NCBI GenBank assembly: GCA_000004985.1
Contig: GG738900.1
Source of the DNA: Naegleria gruberi
Lineage: Eukaryota
Strand: one strand, 5' to 3'
Length of the DNA stretch: 64,000 nt
Positions 21,046 through 44,410 of this stretch are shown in pieces (position 1 is the first letter of the stretch; each line of letters begins with the position of its first letter). Made by a program: the position numbers and the translations under genes. Below the pieces are notes generated by a model. The model was not told where the DNA came from. It did no database searches and was given only the letters and a program-made list of their open reading frames with translations.

Positions 21046-21118
21046 ATTTATTGATTAAATTATAATATTTTGAATAGTTAAACATTTGTCCAAAAATTAG
21101 TAACATTCAAACTTTACA

Positions 21119-22309: not shown

Positions 22310-25300
22310 TTACTTTCTTTTGAGGAAGGATGGTTTACCAAAGAATGAAGACTTAATGCTTTGAAGTTCACCTACCGATTGTAAATCATTTCCTTCAGTC
22401 TCATTATTTTGTTCAGGATCTGTCTTCTTATTTCTAGTAAAGAATGATTTCTTTGTATCCAAACGAGGTATAGCAGCTCTAGTATTTTGTACTTCTTCAA
22501 CTACAACATAAACATCTTCTGCTTCATCATCATCTTGTGCAACTTGTTGTGTGCTAATGTTTGAGGAAACAACATGCTGAGTGGAACCGGTTACAACTGT
22601 GCTACTAGAGCTAGAAGAATGGTTAGTAACAGTAGAGCTACTGGTTTGCTTTGTGACAATATTTGAACTACTGATGGCTTGTTGAGAACTTGTTATCACT
22701 GTTTGTCCGGATACTGCTGATGAGTTTGAATTTTCTGTTGTGGTGATAGTGGAAGAGCTTTGCTTTGATCCAAAGGCCCCTTTCACTGCTTCTCTCATGG
22801 AAGTCTTGCTTTTCATTCCCTTCAATGCTTGCCATCCAAATGGCATTCTCTTCTTTTCAACTCCAGTTTCTTCAACTACAACATAAACATCTTCTGCTTC
22901 ATCATCTTCTTGTGCTACTTGTTGACCATTACTACTGGACACAACTTGTTGACTTGAGGATTGACTAACCATTTTACCTGATTCACTTGCTTCGATAGAT
23001 TTGCTACTATTTACAACAGTCTTTTCTTGTGAAGAAAATCTAGTGGATTTAGATTTTTCAGGCTTTCTCTTTGATGATGCTTCTTGGGATTCAACAACAA
23101 TATAAACATCTTCTCCTTCATCAACCTCTTCAGAAGCACCAGATTGTTGAGTTGAGGTCTTTTGAGCTACCATATTAGATGTCATATTTATAGAAGCAGC
23201 TGATCTACTGCTGATCATAGAGTTGGTAGATTGATAGGTACTTAATTGATCTTCTTGGGTGTAATCAGATGATCTACCTTCCTTTGTTATCAATGCATTG
23301 GCAGCATCTCTCATTGACATCTTATTCTTCTTCATATCTTTCAATGCTTGCCATGCTGAAGATTTCTTTCTCTTCTCCTTTGCTTCTGACTCTACAACAA
23401 CATAAACATCCTCACCTTCATCAACTTCTTCCTTCTTGTTAACAACACTACCCACGTTTCGTTCAAACATACCACTACTCAAGGTTTGCAACATCATATC
23501 TTCGTTCTTTTCCTCTTCGAAAGACATTGGTGGTTTACTTCTGTTCACAACAGTATTCTCTTCAAAGGAACTTTCATTGTTGGAAGAAGAGTTTGGTAAA
23601 GTCTTACTTGATTTGCTAGATTTAGACTTTTCAGGCTTTCTCTTTGATGATGCTTCTTGAGATTCAACAACAATATAAACATCTTCTCCTTCATCAACCT
23701 CTTCAGAAGCACCAGATTGTTGAGTTGAGGTCTTTTGAGCTGCCATATTCAATTCGCTGGATTGTTGATTTGAGGATTTTTGAAGTTTTCTACTACCAGA
23801 AGTAGAGTTAGATTGGTGGACTTGTTCTTCATCAAGAGATACTGGAGGCTTACTTCTGTTAACAACTGATTTTTCTTGAGAAGATTTTGTGGATGATTTT
23901 CCGTTCTTTGACTTCTTGTTTGATCTCTTCTTTGATTTTTCTTCAGATTCCACAACAACAAAAACATCTTCTCCTTCATCTTCTTCAACAGAATTGGTCA
24001 CATTTTGTTGCATCGATTGTGCTTGCATTCCAGATAAGTTACTTGTTGGTATCTTTTGCTTGCTTTCTTTTGGTTTGCTGACTGGTTTCATCTTCTTTTC
24101 TTCAGATTCTACAACTACGAATACATCCTCTCCTTCGTCCTTGCTTTCTGTTGCTGTAGCCATTATTGATTCTCTGTGAGATAATGGCGAGCTCCTAACT
24201 GCTGGTTGGGTTGGTTCTTCATCAAATGACAATGGAGGCTTGCTTCTGTTGACAACTGAATTTTCACTAGAATCTCCAATATATTTGGAAGAAACCTTAA
24301 TTGGTTTGTTTTGCATGATATCTTCTTGAACTGGAGGAGCGTATTTCTTGGCTTGTTCTGATTCTGCAACAATATAAACATCTTCATCAACCTCTTCAGA
24401 AGCAGCAGATTTGTTAGACACTTGTGGTCTTGTTTCCTCAGAAGTGAATTTCTTATTTACAACACTTTCTTCGAACTTATTAGCAGCAAACATGTCACCA
24501 TACAAAGATTGTAACATCTTCTTATTTTCTTCCTCTTGTACGACATTTAGTGGAGAGGCCTTTACTATCTTTTCTTCCTCAGTATAAACTTGTCCTCTAA
24601 CAGTTTGAGAGTTAACACTTGATGGTCTGCTACTGGTTGTTGAATTCAATTCCACATCTCTAGTTTCCTTGGATGCTGACTGAACTCTAGTTCTTCTTGT
24701 TGGGAGTCTTGGACTACCGTGAGATTGAGGTCTTGATGAGCTTTGGTTTGATGTAACTCTTGGAGCACTCTTATTGTTCAAAACAACGTTTTGCAATGAT
24801 TTTTCCTCTTCCTCTTCTTCATCAATATAAACTTGGCCTTGAACTGTTTGAGATTTAGGAGCAACATAGGATCTTGGTTTGGAAGGTTTAACTTCTTCAG
24901 GTGTTGTTTCCACAACTTGCTTCTTTTCCTTTTCTGAGAATAATTCACCTCTCAAGGTTTGAGCCTTATTACTTTGTAAAACTCTTGGCTGAACAAATTC
25001 AGGCGTCTTACTATGATTAACAACTTCCTTTTCTTCAGTTTGCTTGGTTTCACTAAATACATCTCCTCTCATGGTTTGAGATTTGTTACTTGGTAAAACT
25101 CTTGGACTCTTTGGTTGAGCAACTTCTAGGGCTCTACTATGATTAACCACTTCCTTTTCTTCCTTAGAGTTTGCATAAAGTTCTCCCTTCAAGGTTTCCG
25201 TATTTGCACTTGAAATATGCTTCTTTTCTGGAACTTTACCGATTGGCTTACTAGATACATCACTACCGGTAATCAAATTGGCATTCTCATCGACAGTAGT

Positions 25301-28300
25301 AACACTCTTCTCTCCAAATAAATCACCCCTAATGGTTTGAGCCTTATTACTTTGTAAAACTCTTGGACTCTTTGTTTGAGCAAATTCTGGGGCTCTACTA
25401 TGATTAACAACTTCCTTTTCTTCAGTTTGATTGGTTTCACTAAATACATCTCCTCTCATGGTTTGAGATTTAGTTTCAGTGGAAGTTCTTGGAATCTTTA
25501 CTTGTGTTGGAGCAAATTCTGGGGCTCTATGGTTAACCACTTCCTTTTCTTCAGTATTCTTGTCCTTGAGTATTTGAGAAGAAACCTTAATAGGCTTGTT
25601 GAATAACAAGTCATCCATAGTCTTTTCTTCGTTTTGTTCAGTCTTTCTAAATATGCTACTTTCTTCCATCTCTTCACATTCATCTTCAGTAGATCCCATC
25701 GAGAATGGATTTAATGATGATAATTTGGCAGGTTTTGGTTTTGTGCCCCGTTGTACAAAATCTTTTTCATCTACCAATTCTACACTACTTTCCTCTTCAT
25801 GTTCATCCTTAACACGTCCGTTGGCATATGCAAACTCGTTAACAAGACCTTCTTTGACAAGTTTTACAGAGTTGCTACTTCTTCTCAAATCGTCAGTTTC
25901 TTCAACCAAAGATTCGTCTTCATCTTCAGTGACACTATGTTGCATTGAAACATCTCTTTCTCCTTGAATAATATTTGATTTCTTTGATAGCCTTGGTGTG
26001 AATGATTGTACTACGTTTGGCTGGACTTCAGTTTCTTCAGTATAATTTTGTTTGGCGTAAGGATTGATTGATTGCATTGTCATCTTATTCTTCTTTTCTT
26101 CAAATGTTTCTTCATCATCCTTCAAATCCCAGATAGAACCATTTGAATTCTTCACATTCACTTCCTTTTCTTCCTTTTCTTCTGTTTCTTCGTATTGATT
26201 TTCATTCAAGTCAACAAGTGTACCTCCAAGAAGTGGAAGAACCTTATTCTTTCCACCAGTGGTTTGTTGTACAAGTTTGGCATCTCCTGGAACAATTTGA
26301 ACCTTTCTCATAGATCTACCGGTCTTCTTAAGAGGTCTATAAGCAACAAATGGTTCTTCAACCTTAAGACCTTGCTTGTTCATAACTTCCATTTCAACTT
26401 CAGTTTCCTCGTTATATTCTTCTGCAGCTTGAGTCTTAATAGCTATTTGTTGAATCTTCATTTCTTCTTCCTCATCATATGAGATATCAGATTCAGTTGA
26501 TCCTCCAACAACAACTTCTTCTTTATGAACACAGCAACAACAACAACAGAATCCTGCAAATCTTCTTCTATTTCTACACAAGATAATGCAAGAAATAAGA
26601 CAAGTTAGAGAGAAACCACAAATAATAACAGCAGCAGCTCCTAAAGCAGCAACATAGGTGTATGAATAATAGATAACAGTGCTTGTTTGCAGCACAAATA
26701 CGTTGGTGAATTGCTTGCAACGACATTTGGCAAAGGTATCATTTCTAGAAATTGGAGCTACAAGAGAACACTCAGTTCTGATCAAAGAAGATCCATCCTC
26801 AAAATCACCACAAGTATAGGTTTCGGAAACAGTTGTAAAGTCAAGGACATCATGAATAATTTCTGTTTCGACCTTACTAAAGTTAAGTGGAATTGTATAG
26901 ATAATGTCATTCTCGTTAATTGGAGTGGCAACATCAATAAATTCAACAGAAACAATTGGTGAAATCAAGTTAGCCAAAGTATTTGCGTTGGAGAAACTAC
27001 TGGCTGATGTAATCTTTTTAGACTGTTTCAATTGCGAGTTAAGTGAGTAAATATCTTCAGAAACGCACAAAACATAAATAAATGGTTTCTTAACAAGGTA
27101 TGAAAGTTTTGACACTTCAAATTCAAAGAAACCTGACAAGACATCAATACTGGTTTGTGTAATTGGTTCTTGGACATATGTTGGATAATCGTTCAATGTA
27201 CTTTTACCAATTACGACATGGAAGAATGGACCCTGATATCCCTTCTTAAGTCTACCAGCAGACATTCCTCTGGCCATCAAGTAAGAGGTCATCTTCAATG
27301 TCAACAATAGTCTTCTAGAGTTGACTTTTTGATCAATAAGGTATTGTTTGTCAACTACATAGTAATATGCAGAACGAATGCAACCATCTAACATGATATT
27401 CATTCCTGAGGTAAGCTTCAAGCTAGGATCAGAAAGTGAGAATGTAAGGAAAGTGTTCAAAGTATATAAAGATCTATCTACAGTCACACTAGTAAGATAA
27501 GGATAATTCAATAACATTGAATCAACAGCAAAGGAAAGCAAAGATAAGTATTCAACGCTTACAGTTCCTGTTGCATTGGCAATATTGTTCATATCATCGA
27601 GTGCGTGAATCTTTGATAATTGGATATTATTAAAATCTTTGACTTCAATATCACAATATTGGCCTATCCATTCATCCTTACACTTGCAAGAACCAGCAAT
27701 ATCAACACCATTTATACATTCCAAAGAACTAGAGGAACTAGAATGTTGAATAGTATCAGAAATTGTTTCTTCCAACATTACTGAGCCTGTTCTGGAAGAT
27801 GAAGAAGATTGGTAGATACTCTTACTGTATTCTCCCTCCAAAATATAGCTTTGACCTGCATCTGCCCAAGCGATGATTGTTGTTTGGACTTCTTCAACTT
27901 GTTGAACAAATGGTTTATCAATGGTAATGTTAGTGTAAGTAGTTGTTGAAGCACCTGTAAGAGTATTAATTACTTCAAAGTAACATGTTAAAATACTTCC
28001 AGTAAATGGAGCTGGAAGTTTTGAAGAATAAACCTCGCCAAGACTATATAATGGAAGCTTGGCACCTGATCTATCATCAATAAATCCGTATACATAGTCG
28101 ATATGATTTGCATCATCTTTACAATTTGTACAGTAGAATTGGAAATCTGTTTGTTGGGCAATACCTTCAGGAGGATTGATTGTACACAAACATGGTTTTG
28201 GAGAGGTTGCAACTTCGAAAGTATATGTAGTAGATGTTGAGGCTCCAGTGTTTGGATCATAAGCAGTGATAACAACAGTATTATTTGTTCCTTCTTCAAA

Positions 28301-37300: not shown

Positions 37301-40300
37301 NNNNNNNNNNNNNNNNNNNNNNNNNNNNNNNNNNNNNNNNNNNNNNNNNNNNNNNNNNNNNNNNNNNNNNNNNNNNNNNNNNNNNNNNNNNNNNNNNNNN
37401 NNNNNNNNNNNNNNNNNNNNNNNNNNNNNNNNNNNNNNNNNNNNNNNNNNNNNNNNNNNNNNNNNNNNNNNNNNNNNNNNNNNNNNNNNNNNNNNNNNNN
37501 NNNNNNNNNNNNNNNNNNNNNNNNNNNNNNNNNNNNNNNNNNNNNNNNNNNNNNNNNNNNNNNNNNNNNNNNNNNNNNNNNNNNNNNNNNNNNNNNNNNN
37601 NNNNNNNNNNNNNNNNNNNNNNNNNNNNNNNNNNNNNNNNNNNNNNNNNNNNNNNNNNNNNNNNNNNNNNNNNNNNNNNNNNNNNNNNNNNNNNNNNNNN
37701 NNNNNNNNNNNNNNNNNNNNNNNNNNNNNNNNNNNNNNNNNNNNNNNNNNNNNNNNNNNNNNNNNNNNNNNNNNNNNNNNNNNNNNNNNNNNNNNNNNNN
37801 NNNNNNNNNNNNNNNNNNNNNNNNNNNNNNNNNNNNNNNNNNNNNNNNNNNNNNNNNNNNNNNNNNNNNNNNNNNNNNNNNNNNNNNNNNNNNNNNNNNN
37901 NNNNNNNNNNNNNNNNNNNNNNNNNNNNNNNNNNNNNNNNNNNNNNNNNNNNNNNNNNNNNNNNNNNNNNNNNNNNNNNNNNNNNNNNNNNNNNNNNNNN
38001 NNNNNNNNNNNNNNNNNNNNNNNNNNNNNNNNNNNNNNNNNNNNNNNNNNNNNNNNNNNNNNNNNNNNNNNNNNNNNNNNNNNNNNNNNNNNNNNNNNNN
38101 NNNNNNNNNNNNNNNNNNNNNNNNNNNNNNNNNNNNNNNNNNNNNNNNNNNNNNNNNNNNNNNNNNNNNNNNNNNNNNNNNNNNNNNNNNNNNNNNNNNN
38201 NNNNNNNNNNNNNNNNNNNNNNNNNNNNNNNNNNNNNNNNNNNNNNNNNNNNNNNNNNNNNNNNNNNNNNNNNNNNNNNNNNNNNNNNNNNNNNNNNNNN
38301 NNNNNNNNNNNNNNNNNNNNNNNNNNNNNNNNNNNNNNNNNNNNNNNNNNNNNNNNNNNNNNNNNNNNNNNNNNNNNNNNNNNNNNNNNNNNNNNNNNNN
38401 NNNNNNNNNNNNNNNNNNNNNNNNNNNNNNNNNNNNNNNNNNNNNNNNNNNNNNNNNNNNNNNNNNNNNNNNNNNNNNNNNNNNNNNNNNNNNNNNNNNN
38501 NNNNNNNNNNNNNNNNNNNNNNNNNNNNNNNNNNNNNNNNNNNNNNNNNNNNNNNNNNNNNNNNNNNNNNNNNNNNNNNNNNNNNNNNNNNNNNNNNNNN
38601 NNNNNNNNNNNNNNNNNNNNNNNNNNNNNNNNNNNNNNNNNNNNNNNNNNNNNNNNNNNNNNNNNNNNNNNNNNNNNNNNNNNNNNNNNNNNNNNNNNNN
38701 NNNNNNNNNNNNNNNNNNNNNNNNNNNNNNNNNNNNNNNNNNNNNNNNNNNNNNNNNNNNNNNNNNNNNNNNNNNNNNNNNNNNNNNNNNNNNNNNNNNN
38801 NNNNNNNNNNNNNNNNNNNNNNNNNNNNNNNNNNNNNNNNNNNNNNNNNNNNNNNNNNNNNNNNNNNNNNNNNNNNNNNNNNNNNNNNNNNNNNNNNNNN
38901 NNNNNNNNNNNNNNNNNNNNNNNNNNNNNNNNNNNNNNNNNNNNNNNNNNNNNNNNNNNNNNNNNNNNNNNNNNNNNNNNNNNNNNNNNNNNNNNNNNNN
39001 NNNNNNNNNNNNNNNNNNNNNNNNNNNNNNNNNNNNNNNNNNNNNNNNNNNNNNNNNNNNNNNNNNNNNNNNNNNNNNNNNNNNNNNNNNNNNNNNNNNN
39101 NNNNNNNNNNNNNNNNNNNNNNNNNNNNNNNNNNNNNNNNNNNNNNNNNNNNNNNNNNNNNNNNNNNNNNNNNNNNNNNNNNNNNNNNNNNNNNNNNNNN
39201 NNNNNNNNNNNNNNNNNNNNNNNNNNNNNNNNNNNNNNNNNNNNNNNNNNNNNNNNNNNNNNNNNNNNNNNNNNNNNNNNNNNNNNNNNNNNNNNNNNNN
39301 NNNNNNNNNNNNNNNNNNNNNNNNNNNNNNNNNNNNNNNNNNNNNNNNNNNNNNNNNNNNNNNNNNNNNNNNNNNNNNNNNNNNNNNNNNNNNNNNNNNN
39401 NNNNNNNNNNNNNNNNNNNNNNNNNNNNNNNNNNNNNNNNNNNNNNNNNNNNNNNNNNNNNNNNNNNNNNNNNNNNNNNNNNNNNNNNNNNNNNNNNNNN
39501 NNNNNNNNNNNNNNNNNNNNNNNNNNNNNNNNNNNNNNNNNNNNNNNNNNNNNNNNNNNNNNNNNNNNNNNNNNNNNNNNNNNNNNNNNNNNNNNNNNNN
39601 NNNNNNNNNNNNNNNNNNNNNNNNNNNNNNNNNNNNNNNNNNNNNNNNNNNNNNNNNNNNNNNNNNNNNNNNNNNNNNNNNNNNNNNNNNNNNNNNNNNN
39701 NNNNNNNNNNNNNNNNNNNNNNNNNNNNNNNNNNNNNNNNNNNNNNNNNNNNNNNNNNNNNNNNNNNNNNNNNNNNNNNNNNNNNNNNNNNNNNNNNNNN
39801 NNNNNNNNNNNNNNNNNNNNNNNNNNNNNNNNNNNNNNNNNNNNNNNNNNNNNNNNNNNNNNNNNNNNNNNNNNNNNNNNNNNNNNNNNNNNNNNNNNNN
39901 NNNNNNNNNNNNNNNNNNNNNNNNNNNNNNNNNNNNNNNNNNNNNNNNNNNNNNNNNNNNNNNNNNNNNNNNNNNNNNNNNNNNNNNNNNNNNNNNNNNN
40001 NNNNNNNNNNNNNNNNNNNNNNNNNNNNNNNNNNNNNNNNNNNNNNNNNNNNNNNNNNNNNNNNNNNNNNNNNNNNNNNNNNNNNNNNNNNNNNNNNNNN
40101 NNNNNNNNNNNNNNNNNNNNNNNNNNNNNNNNNNNNNNNNNNNNNNNNNNNNNNNNNNNNNNNNNNNNNNNNNNNNNNNNNNNNNNNNNNNNNNNNNNNN
40201 NNNNNNNNNNNNNNNNNNNNNNNNNNNNNNNNNNNNNNNNNNNNNNNNNNNNNNNNNNNNNNNNNNNNNNNNNNNNNNNNNNNNNNNNNNNNNNNNNNNN

Positions 40301-43300
40301 NNNNNNNNNNNNNNNNNNNNNNNNNNNNNNNNNNNNNNNNNNNNNNNNNNNNNNNNNNNNNNNNNNNNNNNNNNNNNNNNNNNNNNNNNNNNNNNNNNNN
40401 NNNNNNNNNNNNNNNNNNNNNNNNNNNNNNNNNNNNNNNNNNNNNNNNNNNNNNNNNNNNNNNNNNNNNNNNNNNNNNNNNNNNNNNNNNNNNNNNNNNN
40501 NNNNNNNNNNNNNNNNNNNNNNNNNNNNNNNNNNNNNNNNNNNNNNNNNNNNNNNNNNNNNNNNNNNNNNNNNNNNNNNNNNNNNNNNNNNNNNNNNNNN
40601 NNNNNNNNNNNNNNNNNNNNNNNNNNNNNNNNNNNNNNNNNNNNNNNNNNNNNNNNNNNNNNNNNNNNNNNNNNNNNNNNNNNNNNNNNNNNNNNNNNNN
40701 NNNNNNNNNNNNNNNNNNNNNNNNNNNNNNNNNNNNNNNNNNNNNNNNNNNNNNNNNNNNNNNNNNNNNNNNNNNNNNNNNNNNNNNNNNNNNNNNNNNN
40801 NNNNNNNNNNNNNNNNNNNNNNNNNNNNNNNNNNNNNNNNNNNNNNNNNNNNNNNNNNNNNNNNNNNNNNNNNNNNNNNNNNNNNNNNNNNNNNNNNNNN
40901 NNNNNNNNNNNNNNNNNNNNNNNNNNNNNNNNNNNNNNNNNNNNNNNNNNNNNNNNNNNNNNNNNNNNNNNNNNNNNNNNNNNNNNNNNNNNNNNNNNNN
41001 NNNNNNNNNNNNNNNNNNNNNNNNNNNNNNNNNNNNNNNNNNNNNNNNNNNNNNNNNNNNNNNNNNNNNNNNNNNNNNNNNNNNNNNNNNNNNNNNNNNN
41101 NNNNNNNNNNNNNNNNNNNNNNNNNNNNNNNNNNNNNNNNNNNNNNNNNNNNNNNNNNNNNNNNNNNNNNNNNNNNNNNNNNNNNNNNNNNNNNNNNNNN
41201 NNNNNNNNNNNNNNNNNNNNNNNNNNNNNNNNNNNCACCATAATAGTTTTCGGTACAATTACAAAGATCTGGACGGTAACAAATACCACGTCTATCCTTA
41301 GTACATACGCCAGTAAGTCCATTACAGATTGGAATTTCACAGTTAAAGCCTCCATATCCAAATGTACTATTACATGTGCAGTTATTATAAAAATCACAAG
41401 AACCACGTCCACTACAGACATCTGGAGAGTTGTATTCAATATCGGCGCAAGTTGTCCATTCACACCAAGTTCCATTATAATTAGGATAACAGCTACATGT
41501 ATCCTTTGCAATACAAGCGCCATGACCATTGCTACAAACTGATGATTCAGTACCTAGAGTACCGTTACACATGGCAATAGAACAATCTTGGCCGTATTGA
41601 TCTGGTAAACACAAGCAAGTATTGTTACCTATACAGTAACCATTATTTGAGCATCCATCTTCAACAATTGATTTGGAATTGAAACAGAATGTAAGTAAAC
41701 ATTGCTCATTAATGTATGGTTCGTATCCGTTGAATGTGATTGGAGGAGTGAATGTTACATCGAATAATAGCATCTGTGTACCACCCATAAACCATAAAGC
41801 GCCCTGAATAGTATCATAAATTTCAATTTGATGGTATGGAGCCATTCCTACCACTGTACCGTGAACATTTCCAGAGAAAAAATTACCATTTCTACCATAG
41901 TCCCAAGTCAACCAAAAGACATTTCTATAGGAGGCACATAACAGATAGTAAAAAACGGCATTATAATAATTGACGTATGGAGCCTTAAAAACAACAGGCT
42001 CAAGACCATGGATAATAAAAATATGATCCTTAATTGTGATACCATTAGGGAAACAATACACACCACCATGCTTGATAACAGTAATATTCTGTAATTCATC
42101 TTGACTATTAATGGTATGTGTACAATCCATGTACAATAATTCCATGGATTTCTTTTCCATTTCTTGAATAATCAACTCTGTCATCGGATCATTTTGAGGT
42201 TTTGAAATGACAACATCATTTCCACTTGGTTCGTACATGACTGGAGTTGTTGGTGAGTAGGCATGAGAAACCTGAATGTCAGGTAAGGCGAAACTTGCCT
42301 GTAATTCCTTTTTAGAGTTTCTGGCAATCATAATAGGTTTGGAACTGATAAGTTTGTAGCCAGCAAATATATCTACAGCACAAGCCTCACCAATGAAACC
42401 AGTTTGGCAAGTACAATTGTTGTATGAAATACAAGTACCGTGTCCAGAACAAACTAAAGGAGAATTAGAATCATCACTGAAACATTGTGTCAATTCACAA
42501 TTAGAGCCAAAATAATTATCTACACAAGAGCAAGAGTCAGGAGCAGTACAGTTACCTAGTGAGGTACAAACAGAAGCATTAGAGAAATGCACACCAGAAC
42601 AATTCCAATGTTGGCACTTATCACCATAATATCCATACAGACAATTACAGTTATCAGAACCAATACAGTCACCGTTACCAGAGCAAACAGTTGAATCGTT
42701 TGATCCTATACCATAACACCAATGAACGGTGAAAATCTCTTCATCACAATTGTTACCAGAGTATCCATCAGTGCACAAGCATTTGTCTAAGGCTGTGCAA
42801 TTTCCTTGGCCATTACATACCAGTGAGGAGTTTGACAATACACCAAAGCATTGAGTAACTTGGCAATCATTTCCAAAATAATTGGAACTACATTGACAAT
42901 TATTTAAATCTACACAAGCGCCATTACCAGAGCAAACAGTTGAATCGTTTGATCCTATACCATAACACCAATGAACGGTGAAAATCTCTTCATCACAATT
43001 GTTACCAGAGTATCCATCAGTGCACGAGCATTTATCTAAGGCTGTGCAATTTCCTTGGCCATTACATACCAGTGAGGAGTTTGACAATACACCAAAGCAT
43101 TGGGTAACTTGGCAATCATTTCCAAAATAATTGGAACTACATTGGCAATTATTTAAATCTACACAAGCGCCATTACCAGAGCAAACAGTTGAATCGTTTG
43201 ATCCTATACCATAACACCAATGAACGGTGAAAATCTCTTCATCACAATTGTTACCAGAGTATCCATCAGTGCACAAGCATTTGTCTAAGGCTGTGCAATT

Positions 43301-43789
43301 TCCTTGGCTACTACATACCAGTGAGGAGTTTGACAATACACCAAAGCATTGAGTAACTTGGCAATCATCTCCAAAATAATTGGAACTACATTGACAATTA
43401 TTTAAATCTACACAAGCGCCATTACCAGAGCAAACTCTAGAGTCATTACTTAGAAGTTCATTACATTCAAAAACAGAACATAAAGGACCATAATAACCAC
43501 TATCACACAAACAATTATCTGGTGATTGGCAACCATGTCCTGACAATATTAACGGATTGATTTGTGGATATTCCAAGCATTCTATATATTCACAATTGTT
43601 GCCTGAATATCCTGTAAGGCAACTACAAGTCTCATCAGCTATACAAGTTCCGTTACCTGAGCAAACCAATAGATCGGTTGAATCCAACGAATTACAGGTA
43701 AAGGCTTGTACACACTTAGTTGAAAAAACTACTAAGAGCGTTACTAACACAACACACTTAATAAATAATGAGGTGTTGATTCCGCTCAT
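22310..43789 (-). CDS. Giant type-I transmembrane protein of at least 7,159 codons including the gap. Reading 5' to 3': a signal peptide; more than 100 tenascin/laminin-type EGF-like modules in several arrays; two copies of an uncharacterised ~250-aa Cys-poor module; a large S/T-rich extracellular stalk; one TM helix; a poly-Cys juxtamembrane patch; and a roughly 1,500-aa acidic repetitive cytoplasmic tail. The CDS is interrupted by assembly gap 36291..41235.
   Basis: The N-terminus MSGINTSLFIKCVVLVTLLVVFSTKCVQA is a signal peptide. The EGF unit is recurrent: 6-8 Cys per ~31-aa unit, such as CSGNGACVDLNNCQCSSNYFGNDCQVTQC. Module copy 1 spans about 41630-42380 and copy 2 about 35500-36290; both contain ...EPVVF[KR]APY[VI][NH]YY...CASYRNVFW...HGTV.... 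The TM and poly-Cys sequence is YVAALGAAAVIICGFSLTCLISCIILCRNRRRFAGFCCCCCCVH, at about 26560-26690. The tail carries repeated EEVDEGEDVYVVVESE-type motifs. The single ORF is in frame on both sides of the N run. Confidence 0.8.
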   Translation of the reverse strand: MSGINTSLFIKCVVLVTLLVVFSTKCVQAFTCNSLDSTDLLVCSGNGTCIADETCSCLTGYSGNNCEYIECLEYPQINPLILSGHGCQSPDNCLCDSGYYGPLCSVFECNELLSNDSRVCSGNGACVDLNNCQCSSNYFGDDCQVTQCFGVLSNSSLVCSSQGNCTALDKCLCTDGYSGNNCDEEIFTVHWCYGIGSNDSTVCSGNGACVDLNNCQCSSNYFGNDCQVTQCFGVLSNSSLVCNGQGNCTALDKCSCTDGYSGNNCDEEIFTVHWCYGIGSNDSTVCSGNGACVDLNNCQCSSNYFGNDCQVTQCFGVLSNSSLVCNGQGNCTALDKCLCTDGYSGNNCDEEIFTVHWCYGIGSNDSTVCSGNGDCIGSDNCNCLYGYYGDKCQHWNCSGVHFSNASVCTSLGNCTAPDSCSCVDNYFGSNCELTQCFSDDSNSPLVCSGHGTCISYNNCTCQTGFIGEACAVDIFAGYKLISSKPIMIARNSKKELQASFALPDIQVSHAYSPTTPVMYEPSGNDVVISKPQNDPMTELIIQEMEKKSMELLYMDCTHTINSQDELQNITVIKHGGVYCFPNGITIKDHIFIIHGLEPVVFKAPYVNYYNAVFYYLLCASYRNVFWLTWDYGRNGNFFSGNVHGTVVGMAPYHQIEIYDTIQGALWFMGGTQMLLFDVTFTPPITFNGYEPYINEQCLLTFCFNSKSIVEDGCSNNGYCIGNNTCLCLPDQYGQDCSIAMCNGTLGTESSVCSNGHGACIAKDTCSCYPNYNGTWCEWTTCADIEYNSPDVCSGRGSCDFYNNCTCNSTFGYGGFNCEIPICNGLTGVCTKDRRGICYRPDLCNCTENYYGXXXXXXXXXXXXXXXXXXXXXXXXXXXXXXXXXXXXXXXXXXXXXXXXXXXXXXXXXXXXXXXXXXXXXXXXXXXXXXXXXXXXXXXXXXXXXXXXXXXXXXXXXXXXXXXXXXXXXXXXXXXXXXXXXXXXXXXXXXXXXXXXXXXXXXXXXXXXXXXXXXXXXXXXXXXXXXXXXXXXXXXXXXXXXXXXXXXXXXXXXXXXXXXXXXXXXXXXXXXXXXXXXXXXXXXXXXXXXXXXXXXXXXXXXXXXXXXXXXXXXXXXXXXXXXXXXXXXXXXXXXXXXXXXXXXXXXXXXXXXXXXXXXXXXXXXXXXXXXXXXXXXXXXXXXXXXXXXXXXXXXXXXXXXXXXXXXXXXXXXXXXXXXXXXXXXXXXXXXXXXXXXXXXXXXXXXXXXXXXXXXXXXXXXXXXXXXXXXXXXXXXXXXXXXXXXXXXXXXXXXXXXXXXXXXXXXXXXXXXXXXXXXXXXXXXXXXXXXXXXXXXXXXXXXXXXXXXXXXXXXXXXXXXXXXXXXXXXXXXXXXXXXXXXXXXXXXXXXXXXXXXXXXXXXXXXXXXXXXXXXXXXXXXXXXXXXXXXXXXXXXXXXXXXXXXXXXXXXXXXXXXXXXXXXXXXXXXXXXXXXXXXXXXXXXXXXXXXXXXXXXXXXXXXXXXXXXXXXXXXXXXXXXXXXXXXXXXXXXXXXXXXXXXXXXXXXXXXXXXXXXXXXXXXXXXXXXXXXXXXXXXXXXXXXXXXXXXXXXXXXXXXXXXXXXXXXXXXXXXXXXXXXXXXXXXXXXXXXXXXXXXXXXXXXXXXXXXXXXXXXXXXXXXXXXXXXXXXXXXXXXXXXXXXXXXXXXXXXXXXXXXXXXXXXXXXXXXXXXXXXXXXXXXXXXXXXXXXXXXXXXXXXXXXXXXXXXXXXXXXXXXXXXXXXXXXXXXXXXXXXXXXXXXXXXXXXXXXXXXXXXXXXXXXXXXXXXXXXXXXXXXXXXXXXXXXXXXXXXXXXXXXXXXXXXXXXXXXXXXXXXXXXXXXXXXXXXXXXXXXXXXXXXXXXXXXXXXXXXXXXXXXXXXXXXXXXXXXXXXXXXXXXXXXXXXXXXXXXXXXXXXXXXXXXXXXXXXXXXXXXXXXXXXXXXXXXXXXXXXXXXXXXXXXXXXXXXXXXXXXXXXXXXXXXXXXXXXXXXXXXXXXXXXXXXXXXXXXXXXXXXXXXXXXXXXXXXXXXXXXXXXXXXXXXXXXXXXXXXXXXXXXXXXXXXXXXXXXXXXXXXXXXXXXXXXXXXXXXXXXXXXXXXXXXXXXXXXXXXXXXXXXXXXXXXXXXXXXXXXXXXXXXXXXXXXXXXXXXXXXXXXXXXXXXXXXXXXXXXXXXXXXXXXXXXXXXXXXXXXXXXXXXXXXXXXXXXXXXXXXXXXXXXXXXXXXXXXXXXXXXXXXXXXXXXXXXXXXXXXXXXXXXXXXXXXXXXXXXXXXXXXXXXXXXXXXXXXXXXXXXXXXXXXXXXXXXXXXXXXXXXXXXXXXXXXXXXXXXXXXXXXXXXXXXXXXXXXXXXXXXXXXXXXXXXXXXXXXXXXXXXXXXXXXXXXXXXXXXXXXXXXXXXXXXXXXXXXXXXXXXXXXXXXXXXXXXXXXXXXXXXXXXXXXXXXXXXXXXXXXXXXXXXXXXXXXXXXXXXXXXXXXXXXXXLFLRGGYAGAECESDIFACYKMISNKPALLAKNSLANSVLTASIAIPSQVITPPTFLFPDPVYPYVGNGSYGITYTYDEFGKNLVDEVGKRVDELNTLPCDFIINNPDSLGKLIIVEFGGVYCLRDSWLIEGHKFVIVGTEPVVFRAPYIHYYGAEFKYEKCASYRNVFWSTYYFGNTVSDWILSTTLHGNVFVNHVHGTVIAKYGQEFWVAGKIHGAVWVHSEELGQVTLQEASFDAPITCDPKEPYVNSECLDIFSCYLIDHHSNLTCAGKGQCIDYNKCICKEDSYGDDCSVSICYGVYGNETYVCSGHGNCAGRDKCVCDFGYYGQMCQFTTCNGINNTSPLACNKRGVCEFYNNCTCNLTLGYGGPDCEIPICNGLVGLCSGAGRGDCISPNNCSCADGYYGKWCEITTCYGVESTNSSVCGEKGNCTAFDKCSCLEGYYGHTCQDFECFGISRLSNETCSGKGSCVNYDTCVCQPEFYGINCEVTSCNDIYSNETKSCSGHGKCVGLDTCNCTQNYYGPWCELTTCFGIEATNHSTVCSGRGSCSRFDVCSCLDGYYGPRCEFTSCDSISSNSTEVCNGVGTCIDLDICVCPNTYSGDFCEITSCFGVPTNIPSVCSGRGFCTHLDICNCDETLGYEGSNCEIPICNGIPAVNSTVCSSHGSCTGADHCSCDTGYFGSNCENTTCGGVSSTSHQVCSRHGFCATYNNCTCNLGYSGSICSVFSCRGTMNTEKAVCSGRGNCSDIDTCVCLSDAYGDDCSISKCNGTFSNFTNIVCSSRGHCIGTDSCNCTEGYYGKFCERTSCYGVDMANKSVCSGRGLCSDYNQCNCSEGYYGDNCQYHTCFGLNNTESKVCSGHGLCSRTDECKCASNYFGLNCSVTICNAVLSNETMVCSGRGECLSPNQCSCREGYYGDYCQVTNCYSIASNQSQLVCSGRGQCSDMNTCICDPDAYGPDCSLYKCNGALSNESIVCSGRGQCIETDHCNCTENNYGQFCQVTSCFGIPSNQTDLTCSGKGVCAQFNSCQCFENSFGSDCSEFKCFEILNVNLTACHSRGSCMSTNNCSCFLNYLGDECELTSCNSILSNDTNVCSGKGQCADFDSCACDEGYYGDNCEYFNCNGIEHLNSSVCSSRGHCTSYEKCECDEGYFGNNCQFFTCNSVNHTESTVCSSRGECSSYNNCTCRDNYFGNDCELTTCGSIQSNDSKVCSSKGSCMDYNICNCSAGYYGSECENFNCFGVSKFSNSTCSGRGDCIDGNTCVCMANMFGPMCEVTICDGILSNDSSVCSGHGSCVDVNDCDCDTNYYGSTCEVTTCNGVSSNTSSVCSGFGKCASFDRCQCEEHYNGNDCQYFTCNGVNHTETTVCSSRGECSSFNNCSCRDNYFGDTCELTTCGSIQSNNSKVCTSRGNCSDFNTCNCSSINYFGTECELVQCFGVLNTNSSVCYSKGICVDYDVCDCENGYFGGECQFFTCGGINSTNSSVCSSRGECSSFNNCSCRDNYFGDTCELTTCGTVNSNNPYVCSGKGKCIDYNTCVCKYGYFGDICEHYSCFNITEGEPLVCSGRGNCTNFGDCKCRENYMDLACDVTSCHGVLSNDTNVCSGKGQCADFDSCACDEGYYGDNCEYFNCNGIEHLNSSVCSTHGKCTSYEKCECDEGYFGNDCQFFTCNSVNHTESTVCSSRGECSSYNNCSCRDNYFGSTCELTTCGSVQSNNSKVCTSRGNCSDFNICECKSDFYGPVCEFYDCNGIEHLNSSVCSTYGKCTIPEVCICKEGYFGNDCQYFTCNGVNHTETTVCSSRGECSSFNNCSCRDNYFGDTCELTTCGSVQSNDSTVCTSRGNCSDFNICECKSDFYGPVCEFYDCNGIEHLNSSVCSTHGKCTSYEKCECDEGYFGNDCQFFTCNYVNHTESNSCSARGECSSYNNCTCFTNYWGVDCQLTSCGNVQSNETTVCSSRGQCIDFNNCSCDEGYYGPTCEFYTCNNVEHLNNSVCSGRGKCSEYSNCTCDTGYYGVNCEFYTCLEGNNTDPSVCSGRGVCASYNNCSCRPHYFGNDCALTTCGNVRSNNNSVCSRRGQCIDYNNCSCVDTYYGSTCQEYDCFGVSRNVKSVCSGKGKCVDIDTCNCKTGYNGTNCEIMIMYGTCKKEINCTNHGECLISGACECYTDYSQGFWTGFTCNKCDQDYYGELCATKVVGPAVFSSDFRGLIFNLYVPDSYTKIDIPCSYLLSETDINRNLFGTLSNLKCQFIDRTNNLFIISFGSMDYTLQPEIDTININTLVIDRINHVTQQNYYVQIDVAMPSNIWPTAVISTLDEFYSSCDDITIDGSMSHSEDGKSLHYYWNLLDSTTYQVFYSNFANSPFIKLQNSSLLPGSYLVSLQVESTFARKNSSIVYSNVFTKASKPIPSIYVPITHQEKDASQFPVYFKKTVSESSCKSQKSAVKWEQLTGPIIDYQVDTFGNLYIPSISTFGYQTYTFLVTAFYPSYPQLNTTSIVTLITKPIDMVLSIIQREARKNYTIIDVEYSDPESTYHTGITEQWTWTCLENSNQTLLEFLFNISKDRSTEFTIESKIFNETVPSYITLTLTIEKSDGRSISATTVVYFVNVPPIVNIVDVEPKTYVIQGQTVTIQTYTSSDPSLTRTNLTINSKNKGIVDSSTINIDTSEFEEGTNNTVVITAYDPNTGASTSTTYTFEVATSPKPCLCTINPPEGIAQQTDFQFYCTNCKDDANHIDYVYGFIDDRSGAKLPLYSLGEVYSSKLPAPFTGSILTCYFEVINTLTGASTTTYTNITIDKPFVQQVEEVQTTIIAWADAGQSYILEGEYSKSIYQSSSSSRTGSVMLEETISDTIQHSSSSSSLECINGVDIAGSCKCKDEWIGQYCDIEVKDFNNIQLSKIHALDDMNNIANATGTVSVEYLSLLSFAVDSMLLNYPYLTSVTVDRSLYTLNTFLTFSLSDPSLKLTSGMNIMLDGCIRSAYYYVVDKQYLIDQKVNSRRLLLTLKMTSYLMARGMSAGRLKKGYQGPFFHVVIGKSTLNDYPTYVQEPITQTSIDVLSGFFEFEVSKLSYLVKKPFIYVLCVSEDIYSLNSQLKQSKKITSASSFSNANTLANLISPIVSVEFIDVATPINENDIIYTIPLNFSKVETEIIHDVLDFTTVSETYTCGDFEDGSSLIRTECSLVAPISRNDTFAKCRCKQFTNVFVLQTSTVIYYSYTYVAALGAAAVIICGFSLTCLISCIILCRNRRRFAGFCCCCCCVHKEEVVVGGSTESDISYDEEEEMKIQQIAIKTQAAEEYNEETEVEMEVMNKQGLKVEEPFVAYRPLKKTGRSMRKVQIVPGDAKLVQQTTGGKNKVLPLLGGTLVDLNENQYEETEEKEEKEVNVKNSNGSIWDLKDDEETFEEKKNKMTMQSINPYAKQNYTEETEVQPNVVQSFTPRLSKKSNIIQGERDVSMQHSVTEDEDESLVEETDDLRRSSNSVKLVKEGLVNEFAYANGRVKDEHEEESSVELVDEKDFVQRGTKPKPAKLSSLNPFSMGSTEDECEEMEESSIFRKTEQNEEKTMDDLLFNKPIKVSSQILKDKNTEEKEVVNHRAPEFAPTQVKIPRTSTETKSQTMRGDVFSETNQTEEKEVVNHSRAPEFAQTKSPRVLQSNKAQTIRGDLFGEKSVTTVDENANLITGSDVSSKPIGKVPEKKHISSANTETLKGELYANSKEEKEVVNHSRALEVAQPKSPRVLPSNKSQTMRGDVFSETKQTEEKEVVNHSKTPEFVQPRVLQSNKAQTLRGELFSEKEKKQVVETTPEEVKPSKPRSYVAPKSQTVQGQVYIDEEEEEEKSLQNVVLNNKSAPRVTSNQSSSRPQSHGSPRLPTRRTRVQSASKETRDVELNSTTSSRPSSVNSQTVRGQVYTEEEKIVKASPLNVVQEEENKKMLQSLYGDMFAANKFEESVVNKKFTSEETRPQVSNKSAASEEVDEDVYIVAESEQAKKYAPPVQEDIMQNKPIKVSSKYIGDSSENSVVNRSKPPLSFDEEPTQPAVRSSPLSHRESIMATATESKDEGEDVFVVVESEEKKMKPVSKPKESKQKIPTSNLSGMQAQSMQQNVTNSVEEDEGEDVFVVVESEEKSKKRSNKKSKNGKSSTKSSQEKSVVNRSKPPVSLDEEQVHQSNSTSGSRKLQKSSNQQSSELNMAAQKTSTQQSGASEEVDEGEDVYIVVESQEASSKRKPEKSKSSKSSKTLPNSSSNNESSFEENTVVNRSKPPMSFEEEKNEDMMLQTLSSGMFERNVGSVVNKKEEVDEGEDVYVVVESEAKEKRKKSSAWQALKDMKKNKMSMRDAANALITKEGRSSDYTQEDQLSTYQSTNSMISSRSAASINMTSNMVAQKTSTQQSGASEEVDEGEDVYIVVESQEASSKRKPEKSKSTRFSSQEKTVVNSSKSIEASESGKMVSQSSSQQVVSSSNGQQVAQEDDEAEDVYVVVEETGVEKKRMPFGWQALKGMKSKTSMREAVKGAFGSKQSSSTITTTENSNSSAVSGQTVITSSQQAISSSNIVTKQTSSSTVTNHSSSSSSTVVTGSTQHVVSSNISTQQVAQDDDEAEDVYVVVEEVQNTRAAIPRLDTKKSFFTRNKKTDPEQNNETEGNDLQSVGELQSIKSSFFGKPSFLKRK
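22480..25620. repeat. Imperfect tandem repeats encoding the cytoplasmic tail of the giant gene. There are about 8 copies of a 150-370-bp unit encoding ...EEVDEGEDVYVVVESE..., and about 6 copies of a unit encoding QT[IML][RK]G[DEQ][VL][FY]...EEKEVVNHSRAPEF.
   Basis: The DNA motif tcaacaacaa(c/t)ataaacatcttc(t/c)(g/c)cttcatca recurs at about 22490, 22870, 23095, 23390, 23670, 23945, 24110 and 24370; the 23090 and 23660 copies are identical over 80 nt or more. The protein-level repeats are visible in the 7,159-aa translation. Confidence 0.75.
30665..32430. repeat. Intragenic segmental duplication of EGF-module coding blocks, about 1.29 kb apart.
   Basis: Near-identical stretches of at least 180 nt occur at about 30820-31005 and 32110-32295, where the ORF track shows identical 61-aa reverse-frame ORFs. 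Further duplicated protein blocks occur downstream (VTSCHGVLSNDTNVCSGKGQCADFDSCACDEGYYGDNCEYFNCNGIEHLNSSVCS... twice, FTCNGVNHTETTVCSSRGECSSFNNCSCRDNYFGDTCELTTCG... three times). Confidence 0.7.
36291..41235. other. Assembly gap (4,945 N) inside the giant EGF-repeat gene.
   Basis: An unbroken run of n. The flanking sequence is highly repetitive EGF-module coding DNA, so the gap likely reflects repeat collapse. The ORF-track X-runs through the gap are artefacts. Confidence 0.99.
42680..43430. repeat. Three tandem, near-identical 249-bp repeats, each encoding an 83-aa double-EGF unit, inside the giant gene.
   Basis: The motif accagagcaaacagttgaatcgtttgatcctatacc recurs at 42678, 42926 and 43175, a period of 249 bp. 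The protein unit EEIFTVHWCYGIGSNDSTVCSGNGACVDLNNCQCSSNYFGNDCQVTQCFGVLSNSSLVCNGQGNCTALDKC[SL]CTDGYSGNNCD is repeated three times with one or two substitutions. Confidence 0.9.
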
Positions 43790-44410
43790 TTTGAGTACGT
43801 TTTCTTAGTTATTGTTATTATTATTATTAGTATCGTTAATAAAATTAAGCGTTTTTTACGTTTCTACGTTGTTGCGTTTTTTGTTTTTTTGCAAGGGTCC
43901 TTAATTGTTGCACATTCAATCATGGCGGGCACGTATCTATTATTAAACCTAGCCTTATTCATGTGGAGTGTTCTTCATAAGAACCCTTAGATGAAACATG
44001 TTTCCATCTCCTTTTGGACAGCATCTTGTTTTGTTAACCGTTATTACCAAGACTTGGCAGTTGAACAATTTATGGGAATGAATACTAAAATCGGCCACTT
44101 TGATGCCATTTTAATTATTGTGAAATGTCTCTTTTGAATTTTTTATAATATTAATAAATATATGAAATTTAAAACTCATATTTTGTTAACATAAACCTTT
44201 CAAAAGAACACAATCAATATAATTTTCTTCATCATCCTGGAAGATGGAGTTGAAGATATTCCGATAGTAATGCACACGCTCCACAATAGTATGAATTAAA
44301 TGACCAGTTTCACCAACGAGACTCATTTTCTTTTTTTTGAACCAATGATGCTTGAATATTAGTTGATCAACAGAAAAAATAAAAGCAACACAAAAGAAGA
44401 TTACAACATC

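What the first reader, a model, noticed from the sequence alone, without database searches (positions are those of the whole stretch)
22310..43789. Giant gene of more than 21 kb encoding a type-I membrane protein with over 100 EGF modules and a doubled unknown module
A single minus-strand ORF runs from 43789 to 22310, crossing the N gap in frame. At 7,159 codons or more it would be among the largest proteins of a small amoebozoan genome. The extracellular part is almost entirely tenascin/laminin-type EGF modules. Two copies of a non-EGF, Cys-poor ~250-aa module are embedded among them, at about 41630-42380 and 35500-36290 (…GGVYC…EPVVF[KR]APY[VI][NH]YY…CASYRNVFW…HGTV…). I cannot assign this module to any known domain; it may be a new ligand-binding or beta-helix module. 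The protein then has a single TM helix, a CCCCCC palmitoylation-like patch and a roughly 1,500-aa acidic cytoplasmic tail. The architecture suggests an adhesion or kin-recognition receptor for the multicellular stage of a social amoeba.
Basis: partly seen in the sequence, partly recalled or inferred. Interest (0 to 1): 0.8.

Follow-up and report, generated by a model that had tools for sequence, protein, structure and literature searches.

The report
Giant Naegleria EGF receptor with ice-binding-fold modules
This is a real, very large surface-protein gene of the amoeboflagellate Naegleria gruberi (not a social amoeba); its "unknown" 250-residue module is a very divergent copy of the beta-helix fold known from microbial ice-binding proteins, set in EGF repeats above a polycystin-like stalk.

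Summary
The minus-strand ORF 22310-43789 exists. However, 4,945 of its bases are an N gap whose length is not a multiple of 3, so "in frame" carries no information. Real sequence covers 851 + 4,659 codons and shows about 64 EGF modules, not more than 100. The window is Naegleria gruberi: its SSRP1 ORF is 100% identical to the N. gruberi protein. The social-amoeba and kin-recognition reading therefore fails.

The doubled module is real (38% identity, E=1e-49). An exhaustive HMMER search of 1.84 billion proteins found it in only four others: three N. gruberi paralogues and one metagenome fragment. One paralogue, NAEGRDRAFT_51207, carries five copies in one protein. Its first and fifth copies are the best matches of the window's two copies. 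This supports one gene across the gap.

The module is a distant DUF3494 / IBP-1 beta-helix:
- A 13-copy profile hits only ice-binding proteins in the PDB (best E=1.2e-4).
- Pfam's own model does not detect the window copies.

The C-terminal part is a PKD-like domain, a REJ domain (E=6e-16), a sub-threshold GPS-like motif lacking the catalytic His, one TM helix and a 1,421-residue tail of repeated acidic motifs. My best reading is an adhesion or particle-sensing receptor. It is a new variant of known kinds.

The parts
22310..43789 (-). Whole ORF as listed. Real sequence covers aa 1-851 and aa 2501-7159; the stop codon is at 22310-22312.
43703..43789 (-). Signal-peptide-like N-terminus (aa 1-29, MSGINTSLFIKCVVLVTLLVVFSTKCVQA).
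   Evidence: Hydropathy peak 2.3. The cleavage site was judged by eye.
42380..43702 (-). N-terminal EGF array (aa 30-470, about 11 modules). It includes a 249-bp x 3.1 tandem DNA repeat at 42675-43435, 97% identical, in which each unit encodes two EGFs plus a spacer.
41690..42379 (-). Module copy 1 (aa 471-700): a divergent DUF3494 / IBP-1-fold beta-helix.
41237..41689 (-). Conserved quartet of EGFs that follows every module (aa 701-851). The last one is cut by the gap.
36291..41235 (.). Assembly gap of 4,945 N. By analogy with the paralogue P0001 it probably hides more EGFs and about two further beta-helix modules. This is an inference.
35519..36253 (-). Module copy 2 (aa 2513-2757): the same fold. 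Its best match is module 5 of P0001 (51%).
29720..35518 (-). Main EGF array (aa 2758-4690, 49 modules of 39 aa), ending in a laminin-type EGF. It includes a 351-bp x 2.5 tandem DNA repeat at 30509-31401.
28907..29719 (-). Unassigned region of about 110 aa followed by a PKD-like Ig domain (aa about 4804-4883). The PKD hits are weak.
   Evidence: PKD_4 E=0.0025; KIAA0319L PKD, E=0.056
27896..28906 (-). REJ domain (aa 4962-5298).
   Evidence: PF02010, 58.6 bits against a cut-off of 25, E=5.7e-16
26696..27724 (-). EGF-like knot plus a juxtamembrane domain of about 300 aa (aa 5356-5698), proposed to be GAIN-like. It is conserved at 42-46% identity in four paralogues.
   Evidence: The fold was not modelled.
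26696..26812 (-). GPS-like four-Cys motif CGDF..C..CRCKQFTNVF (aa 5660-5698), about 13 residues before the TM helix. The His at position -2 is replaced by Gln.
26570..26662 (-). Single transmembrane helix (aa 5710-5740), followed by RNRRR.
26531..26548 (-). CCCCCC patch (aa 5748-5753), absent from the paralogues. Palmitoylation is inferred only.
22313..26575 (-). Cytoplasmic tail (aa 5739-7159). It is rich in S, E, K and V, with pI 5.2. It has 8 copies of EE.DEGEDV[YF][IV]VVE each followed by a basic patch (aa 6465-7105), 6 copies of QT.RG..[FY], and 10 VVN motifs. It has no BLAST match in the paralogues.

Best explanation
The locus encodes one giant type-I surface protein of Naegleria gruberi. 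It belongs to a small, apparently Naegleria-restricted paralogous family: this gene plus P0001, P0003, P0004 and P0005.

Shown:
- A membrane-proximal cassette (PKD-like Ig, REJ domain, juxtamembrane domain ending in a GPS-like four-Cys motif, one TM helix) carries a very long rod of tenascin/teneurin-type EGF repeats.
- The rod is interrupted by repeated 'supermodules'. Each is an IBP-1-fold (DUF3494-like) beta-helix followed by a fixed quartet of EGFs.

Inferred mechanism:
- The EGF rod projects the beta-helix heads far from the membrane, where their flat faces bind an external ligand such as substrate, prey-cell surface or glycan.
- The REJ/GPS-like stalk couples that binding or tension to the membrane, as proposed for polycystin-1/suREJ-type and adhesion-GPCR ectodomains. 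Because the catalytic His is missing, it probably does so without canonical autoproteolysis.
- The paralogue-specific tail recruits cytoplasmic partners or sorting machinery through its eight acidic EDV-Y/F-VVVE motifs (five read as YxxPhi) and a juxtamembrane poly-Cys patch.

The gap most likely hides more of the same gene, probably about two further supermodules, rather than a gene boundary.
For: Organism: the window's SSRP1 ORF is 100% identical to the N. gruberi protein. The neighbouring genes are ordinary eukaryotic genes.

Family: an exhaustive profile search of 1.84e9 representatives gave four hits, three of them N. gruberi proteins. P0005 is a further paralogue without the module. The REJ/juxtamembrane region is 41-46% identical to P0001, P0003 and P0004 over 925-1,130 aa.

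Module fold:
- A 13-copy profile against PDB sequences returned 14 hits, all ice-binding or DUF3494 proteins, best E=1.2e-4.
- The AF2 model has pLDDT 83.9 and pTM 0.84.
- In Foldseek the top 29 hits are all DUF3494 ice-binding proteins, E from 1.6e-6 to 6e-4, and the next hit has E=0.1.

Supermodule: the post-module EGF quartets score 125-176 bits against each other, compared with a mean of 75-91 bits against other EGF windows.

Stalk: REJ E=5.7e-16. The GPS-like motif aligns to the ADGRL3 GPS, and Pfam GPS scores 15-16 bits in three paralogues.

Topology: hydropathy shows one signal segment and one TM segment, and there are 112 N-glycosylation sequons in the ectodomain.

Single gene: modules are colinear with P0001, and both gap edges lie inside EGFs.
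Against: - No experimental or expression data exist, and the ligand is unknown.
- GPS/GAIN membership is below every curated threshold.
- Pfam Ice_binding does not detect the window copies. It reaches only 13.9-23.1 bits, against a cut-off of 28.7, in the most divergent paralogue copies.
- Continuity across the gap is inferred from a paralogue, not observed.
- The tail motifs have no known counterpart. Two of the eight carry Phe instead of Tyr and a sixth Tyr copy (YIVA) does not read as YxxPhi, which weakens a strict YxxPhi or phosphotyrosine reading.
Confidence: 0.6

Rival explanations
1. There are two tandem genes rather than one. An upstream gene (signal peptide, EGFs, module 1, EGFs) would end inside the gap, and a second gene would start inside the gap with its own signal peptide.
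For: The gap is 4,945 N, not a multiple of 3, so frame continuity is uninformative. A short signal-EGF-module-EGF form exists in a metagenome contig (P0002 / L001).
Against: Both gap edges lie inside EGF modules on the same strand, and the frames stay open right up to the Ns. The paralogue P0001 carries module-1-like and module-5-like copies in one 4,968-aa protein, in the same order. The nominal module spacing of 2,042 aa fits three P0001-like intervals of 420-750 aa.
Confidence: 0.15
2. The beta-helix modules are functional ice-binding domains. The protein would then be a membrane-anchored ice adhesin or freeze-protection device of a soil and freshwater amoeba, analogous to bacterial ice adhesins that carry an ice-binding head on a long repetitive stalk.
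For: The only structural relatives are ice-binding proteins. One of them, Shewanella SfIBP_1 (6bg8), is a DUF3494 domain deposited under the name 'Ig domain protein, group 2 domain protein'.
Against: Identity to true ice-binding proteins is only 13-16%. From general knowledge, N. gruberi is a mesophile, and many DUF3494 proteins come from organisms not associated with ice and have no demonstrated ice activity. No paper in the library links Naegleria to ice-binding proteins.
Confidence: 0.07
3. It is a structural or matrix component, for example of the cyst wall or glycocalyx, with no signalling role. The REJ/GPS-like region would be only a spacer and the tail only an anchor.
For: The ectodomain is highly repetitive and heavily sequon-rich, with 112 N-x-S/T sites. 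The catalytic His of the GPS is absent. The tail is not conserved among the paralogues.
Against: A 1,421-aa tail with eight well-conserved copies of a 17-residue motif is hard to explain as a passive anchor. The REJ/juxtamembrane cassette is the best-conserved part of the family.
Confidence: 0.15
4. It is an assembly artefact or a decaying pseudogene built from collapsed EGF repeats.
For: There is a gap inside a repeat array and there are 86-97% identical tandem DNA repeats. No exact gene product for five candidate post-gap starts was found in the protein collection.
Against: 5,510 sequenced codons contain no stop. All domains are intact and colinear with the paralogues.
Confidence: 0.03

Closest known systems
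DUF3494 / 'Ice-binding-like' family (Pfam PF11999; IBP-1 fold, e.g. 5uyt, 7bwx, 3wp9, 6bg8, 4nu2, 3uyu)
   Different: Identity is only 13-16% and the score is below Pfam's gathering threshold. The modules are embedded in 2-5 copies inside an EGF array of a eukaryotic membrane protein. From general knowledge, described eukaryotic DUF3494 ice-binding proteins are mostly small secreted proteins of cold-adapted algae, fungi and similar organisms, thought to have been acquired by gene transfer. The host here is mesophilic, and ice binding is untested.
Polycystin-1 / sea-urchin REJ / PKDREJ ectodomain cassette (PKD repeats - REJ - GAIN/GPS - first TM)
   Same: The REJ domain scores well above threshold. 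A weak PKD-like Ig domain precedes it. A four-Cys C..C..CxCxx(L/F)T..F motif lies about 13 residues before the TM helix, which is the position a GPS would occupy.
   Different: There is one TM helix instead of 11. There is no PLAT domain and no polycystin channel-like region. The His at position -2 of the cleavage triad is replaced by Q, K or R. The N-terminal part is EGF plus beta-helix rather than LRR, C-lectin or PKD repeats.
Adhesion GPCRs (e.g. latrophilin/ADGRL3)
   Same: They have a long adhesive ectodomain, a GPS-like motif directly before the membrane, and a stretch after the putative cleavage site (TNVFVLQTSTVIYYSY) that sits where the tethered-agonist segment of adhesion GPCRs lies. 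The best PDB profile hit for the juxtamembrane region is the ADGRL3 GPS.
   Different: There is no 7TM domain, and the match is statistically weak (E=0.2).
Multi-EGF single-pass receptors of animals (tenascin/teneurin-type EGF arrays; MEGF10/PEAR1/Draper)
   Same: The EGF subtype is the same: Pfam EGF_Teneurin, EGF_TEN and EGF_PEAR1L. These are single-pass proteins with a long tail.
   Different: There are no EMI, FN3, fibrinogen or YD domains, and the tail has no NPxY motif. The lineage is unrelated (Discoba).
N. gruberi paralogues NAEGRDRAFT_51207 (D2VPE3), _76139 (D2W408), _75960 (D2W3J2), all 'predicted protein'
   Same: The architecture is the same throughout. They carry 5, 2 and 3 beta-helix modules respectively.
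   Different: They are shorter (1,832-4,968 aa). Some have an N/S/T-rich mucin-like linker in place of part of the EGF array. Their tails are short and unrelated, and they lack the poly-Cys patch.

Membership tests
DUF3494 / Ice_binding (PF11999), IBP-1 fold | Match to the Pfam family model at or above its gathering score (28.7 bits) | tested here: not met
   Neither window copy gives any hit at E<=10. Three paralogue copies reach 13.9-23.1 bits.
DUF3494 / Ice_binding (PF11999), IBP-1 fold | Significant profile-level sequence similarity to proteins of the family | tested here: met
   The 13-copy profile against 177,635 PDB sequences gave 14 hits, all ice-binding or DUF3494 proteins, with best E=1.2e-4 and 8.8e-4.
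DUF3494 / Ice_binding (PF11999), IBP-1 fold | Beta-helix with a long alpha-helix alongside (the IBP-1 fold) | tested here: met
DUF3494 / Ice_binding (PF11999), IBP-1 fold | Ice-binding activity (thermal hysteresis or recrystallisation inhibition) | not testable with these tools
   This needs recombinant protein.
Polycystin-1 / REJ family | REJ domain | tested here: met
   PF02010, 58.6 bits against a cut-off of 25, E=5.7e-16, aa 4962-5298.
Polycystin-1 / REJ family | GAIN domain with a GPS motif (CxCxHL|T) immediately before the first TM helix | tested here: inconclusive
   The four-Cys motif is in the right place. Pfam GPS scores 15.3-16.3 bits, below the 22.5 cut-off, in three paralogues and gives nothing for the window copy. 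The profile against the PDB has the ADGRL3 GPS as top hit at E=0.2. The His at -2 is replaced. The GAIN fold was not modelled.
Polycystin-1 / REJ family | PLAT domain and 11-TM polycystin core after the first TM helix | tested here: not met
   There is only one TM segment, and the tail has no PLAT or PKD_channel hit.
Adhesion GPCR | Seven-transmembrane domain after the GPS | tested here: not met
   There is a single hydrophobic segment after the ectodomain.
   The organism is Naegleria gruberi. There are no IPT/TIG or VWA hits.
Tenascin / teneurin | EGF array plus FN3 and fibrinogen domains (tenascin), or a type-II YD-shell (teneurin) | tested here: not met
   Only the EGF subtype matches. There are no FN3, fibrinogen, YD or NHL hits, and the topology is type I.

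The most novel reading that the evidence does not exclude
Naegleria has a lineage-restricted receptor class in which the ice-binding-protein (DUF3494) beta-helix has been co-opted. It would serve as a repeated extracellular ligand-binding head, in a fixed beta-helix + 4-EGF supermodule, on a polycystin-1-like REJ/GPS stalk with a single TM helix. If so, the IBP-1 fold has a non-ice, cell-surface recognition function in a eukaryote. The REJ-GPS ectodomain cassette would also exist in Discoba as a single-pass protein, and so is not confined to animals and their close relatives.
Probability: 0.35. Interest if true: 0.6.

Novelty: new variant of a known kind. Interest (0 to 1): 0.45.

Why it matters
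- DUF3494 is studied almost entirely as a secreted ice-binding protein of cold-adapted microbes. A multi-copy, membrane-anchored, highly divergent version in a mesophilic amoeboflagellate gives a concrete system for asking what this fold does when it is not binding ice.
- It also shows that curated models miss a whole branch of the family.
- A REJ / GPS-like cassette on a single-pass protein in Discoba bears on where the polycystin-1 and adhesion-GPCR ectodomain machinery came from.
- In practical terms, the result corrects the taxonomic premise of the finding and shows that the headline numbers (7,159 codons, more than 100 EGFs) rest on an assembly gap.

Tried and rejected
- A word-indexed homology search with module copy 2 found nothing. 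The exhaustive search was needed.
- AF2 with only the two window copies gave an unusable model, pLDDT 54. The 13-copy alignment fixed this.
- Pfam on whole segments and on single module copies gave no family for the window copies.
- phmmer of the REJ region against the PDB gave only a marginal KIAA0319L PKD hit.
- Exact-sequence look-ups failed for the window SSRP1 and P0006 in the contig index, and for five candidate post-gap products in the protein collection. I therefore could not recover the public gene model or accession for this locus.
- Pattern scans of JGI metagenomes with the module and with the juxtamembrane region, and of 185,579 prokaryotic genomes, found no relative. There is thus no sign of a recent bacterial donor or of environmental relatives.
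- The afdb50 fold library was unavailable.
- Literature searches found nothing that describes this family. The terms tried were Naegleria + DUF3494, ice-binding, GAIN, polycystin/REJ and EGF, plus the Naegleria pangenome paper.
- A MEGF10/Draper-type phagocytic receptor was rejected as a membership claim: there is no EMI domain and no NPxY.
Full report

The ORF listing reports a minus-strand ORF at 22310..43789 of 7,159 codons. The window also holds one N run, 36291-41235, of 4,945 bases, and it lies inside this ORF. The tool translates N as X, so the ORF 'crosses' the gap trivially. Two other mostly-N ORFs cross it in the other two frames.

The gap length is not a multiple of three and is an assembly estimate. 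Agreement of frame on the two sides is therefore a one-in-three coincidence and says nothing.

What is actually sequenced is aa 1-851 (window 41237-43789) and aa 2501-7159 (window 22313-36289), 5,510 codons without a stop in 35% G+C DNA. That cannot be chance.

A six-Cys regular expression finds 13 EGF modules before the gap and 49 after it, with a 39-aa period. CxC counts give 15 and 49. So about 64 EGF modules are visible. 'Over 100' is an extrapolation into the gap.

Both gap edges cut inside an EGF module: '...CNCTENYYG|NNN' and 'NNN|LFLRGGYAGAECE...'.

**2. Whose genome is it?**

The neighbouring ORFs are ordinary eukaryotic genes: SSRP1/FACT, Tudor-SN, a CSC1/OSCA channel, P450, FMO, an NDH2-type oxidoreductase, a JAB/MPN protease and a WD40 protein.

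The SSRP1 ORF (51882-53474, minus strand) is 100% identical over 100% of its length to the Naegleria gruberi predicted protein. The next best hits are an unnamed relative (65%), N. lovaniensis (58%), Willaertia magna (55%) and Acrasis kona (44%).

The window is therefore N. gruberi, a heterolobosean amoeboflagellate (Discoba). By established knowledge it has amoeba, flagellate and cyst stages and no multicellular stage. The kin-recognition reading falls with this.

**3. The doubled module**

The two copies (aa about 471-700 and 2513-2757) are 38% identical, BLASTP E=1e-49. Pfam gives nothing for either copy, even at E<=10. A word-indexed search found nothing.

An exhaustive HMMER search with a profile of the two copies, against 1.84 billion representative proteins, found only four proteins:

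| Protein | Length | Module copies | E-value |
|---|---|---|---|
| P0001 | 4,968 aa | 5 | 3.7e-238 |
| P0002 | 554 aa | 1 | 2.3e-64 |
| P0003 | 1,832 aa | 2 | 2.9e-11 |
| P0004 | 2,641 aa | 3 | 1.4e-9 |

P0001, P0003 and P0004 are N. gruberi 'predicted proteins': NAEGRDRAFT_51207, _76139 and _75960. P0002 is an unnamed ENA metagenome product. All the full-length ones share the window protein's architecture.

The motif pattern (FAGY..., GGVY..., CASYRNVFW, HGTV, GA.W) reminded me of DUF3494. I tested that lead as follows.

- I aligned 13 module copies (A2).
- The profile of A2 against all PDB sequences returned 14 hits. Every one is an ice-binding or DUF3494 protein, with 6a8k at E=1.2e-4, 7bwx at 8.8e-4 and 6bg8 at 6e-3.
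- Pfam Ice_binding (PF11999) matches three of the 13 copies. These are the divergent P0003 and P0004 copies, at 13.9-23.1 bits, all below the 28.7-bit gathering score.
- AlphaFold2 with the 13-row alignment gave a confident model of window copy 1, with pLDDT 83.9 and pTM 0.84. It has N-terminal strands, one long helix (residues 68-85) and then stacked beta coils.
- In Foldseek against the PDB, the top 29 hits (E from 1.6e-6 to 6e-4, probability 1.00) are exclusively DUF3494 ice-binding proteins, and the 30th hit has E=0.1.

The module is therefore a remote member of the DUF3494 / IBP-1 fold, too divergent for the curated Pfam model. Its claim that no known domain fits was not.

**4. One gene or two?**

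Window module 1 is most similar to module 1 of P0001 (52%). Window module 2 is most similar to module 5 of P0001 (51%). Both values exceed the 38% between the two window copies. The paralogue thus carries both module types, in the same order, in a single protein, with three more divergent modules between them at spacings of 423-754 aa.

The nominal distance between the window's modules is 2,042 aa. That would accommodate about two further modules.

Each module, in both proteins, is followed by the same quartet of EGFs. The third of these carries 'GYGG..CEIPIC'. The quartets score 125-176 bits against each other, versus a mean of 75-91 and a maximum of 109 against other EGF windows. The unit of duplication is therefore a supermodule of beta-helix plus four EGFs.

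Together with the mid-EGF gap edges, this favours one gene. I put that at about 0.8, but it remains an inference.

Tandem DNA repeats explain why the assembly broke here. They are 249 bp x 3.1 at 97% identity (42675-43435) and 351 bp x 2.5 at 86% identity (30509-31401).

**5.

After the EGF array comes the following series.

- A laminin-type EGF.
- About 110 unassigned residues.
- A weak PKD-like Ig domain (PKD_4 E=0.0025; KIAA0319L PKD E=0.056).
- A clear REJ domain (PF02010, 58.6 bits against a cut-off of 25, E=5.7e-16, aa 4962-5298).
- An EGF-like knot.
- A domain of about 300 residues ending in 'CGDFEDGSS...EC...CRCKQFTNVFVLQ', about 13 residues before the single TM helix.

In five paralogues this last motif reads C-x2-F-...-C-...-C-x-C-x2-(L/F)-T-N-V-F. 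That is the four-Cys layout of a GPS.

A profile of this region has as its best PDB hit the GPS of latrophilin-3, aligned exactly motif to motif, but only at E=0.2. Pfam GPS reaches 15.3-16.3 bits, against a cut-off of 22.5, in three paralogues and gives nothing for the window copy.

The His at position -2 of the canonical HL|T triad is replaced by Q here, and by K or R in the paralogues. My judgement is a REJ-plus-GPS-like cassette of polycystin-1/suREJ type, probably not self-cleaving.

The REJ-to-TM region is the most conserved part of the family, at 41-46% identity over 925-1,130 aa.

**6. Membrane and tail**

Hydropathy shows only the N-terminal signal-like segment and one TM helix at aa 5710-5740, followed by RNRRR and then CCCCCC at aa 5748-5753. 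The ectodomain has 112 N-x-S/T sequons.

The tail (aa 5739-7159) has these features.

- It is rich in S, E, K and V, with pI 5.2 and net charge about -40.
- It has no BLAST match in the paralogues and no Pfam domain.
- It contains eight copies of EE.DEGEDV(Y/F)(I/V)VVE, each followed by a basic patch. Six of the eight carry Tyr, and five of those read as YxxPhi.
- It contains six copies of QT.RG..(F/Y) and ten VVN motifs, but no NPxY.

Palmitoylation and adaptor binding are inferences only.

**7. Distribution and literature**

Pattern scans of JGI metagenomes (module and juxtamembrane region) and of 185,579 prokaryotic genomes found no relatives.

The only non-N. gruberi member is a 3.9-kb ENA contig (ERZ929261). 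It encodes signal peptide, four EGFs, one module and three EGFs, and then ends, with convergent genes following. It may be a short secreted form or a chimeric assembly.

The proteomes of N. lovaniensis and Willaertia are in the word-indexed search collection, and the description of the listing of cluster members says that collection is drawn from about 15 billion sequences, the figure also given for the library of the exhaustive search. Even so, neither species produced a hit in the exhaustive search. This hints at restriction to the N. gruberi clade. Giant repetitive genes are, however, often missing from annotations.

No paper in the library links Naegleria with DUF3494, ice binding, GAIN or REJ, or describes this family.

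**8. Verdict**

This is a real gene, very probably a single one, of N. gruberi. It belongs to a small family of giant surface proteins built from known parts in a combination I have not seen described: tenascin/teneurin-type EGF rod, repeated DUF3494-fold heads, and a PKD/REJ/GPS-like stalk with one TM helix.

The most likely role is adhesion to, or sensing of, an external surface or particle, with a paralogue-specific tail for intracellular coupling. No step of that mechanism has been shown experimentally.

It is a new variant of known kinds and is moderately interesting.

Noticed in passing
window 41237-41689 and 35066-35518; P0001 after each of its five modules: Every beta-helix module is followed by the same quartet of EGFs; the third carries 'GYGG..CEIPIC'. 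The duplicated unit is therefore a supermodule, not the module alone.
   Followed up: yes
L001 (ENA ERZ929261, contig k127_130209) 565-2229: This is the only relative found outside N. gruberi. It is a 554-aa product with signal peptide, four EGFs, one module and three EGFs, after which the frame ends and convergent genes follow. It may be a short secreted form or a chimeric metagenome contig.
   Followed up: partly
window 22475-24397 (aa 6465-7105): Eight copies of an acidic motif EE.DEGEDV(Y/F)(I/V)VVE, each followed by a basic K/R patch. Further upstream there are six QT.RG..(F/Y) motifs and four EEKEVVNH motifs. No known counterpart was found.
   Followed up: partly
window 26531-26548: A run of six Cys residues lies 10 residues after the TM helix. 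It is absent from all four paralogues.
   Followed up: no
window 42675-43435 and 30509-31401: Recent tandem duplications lie inside the EGF arrays: 249 bp x 3.1 at 97% identity and 351 bp x 2.5 at 86% identity. This suggests ongoing expansion and contraction and is a likely cause of the assembly gap.
   Followed up: partly
window 18960-22294 (+): Three consecutive plus-strand ORFs (440, 235 and 391 aa) have no Pfam hit. The last one ends 15 bp from the stop of the convergent giant ORF.
   Followed up: no
window 44363-45988 (+): A cytochrome P450 is split over two adjacent ORFs: Pfam model positions 2-160 in the first and 175-399 in the second. This is probably a short intron. The gene is transcribed divergently from the giant gene.
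   Followed up: no
window 15384-17234 (-): An NDH2-type NADH dehydrogenase with an EF-hand pair is split over two adjacent ORFs, probably by an intron.
   Followed up: no
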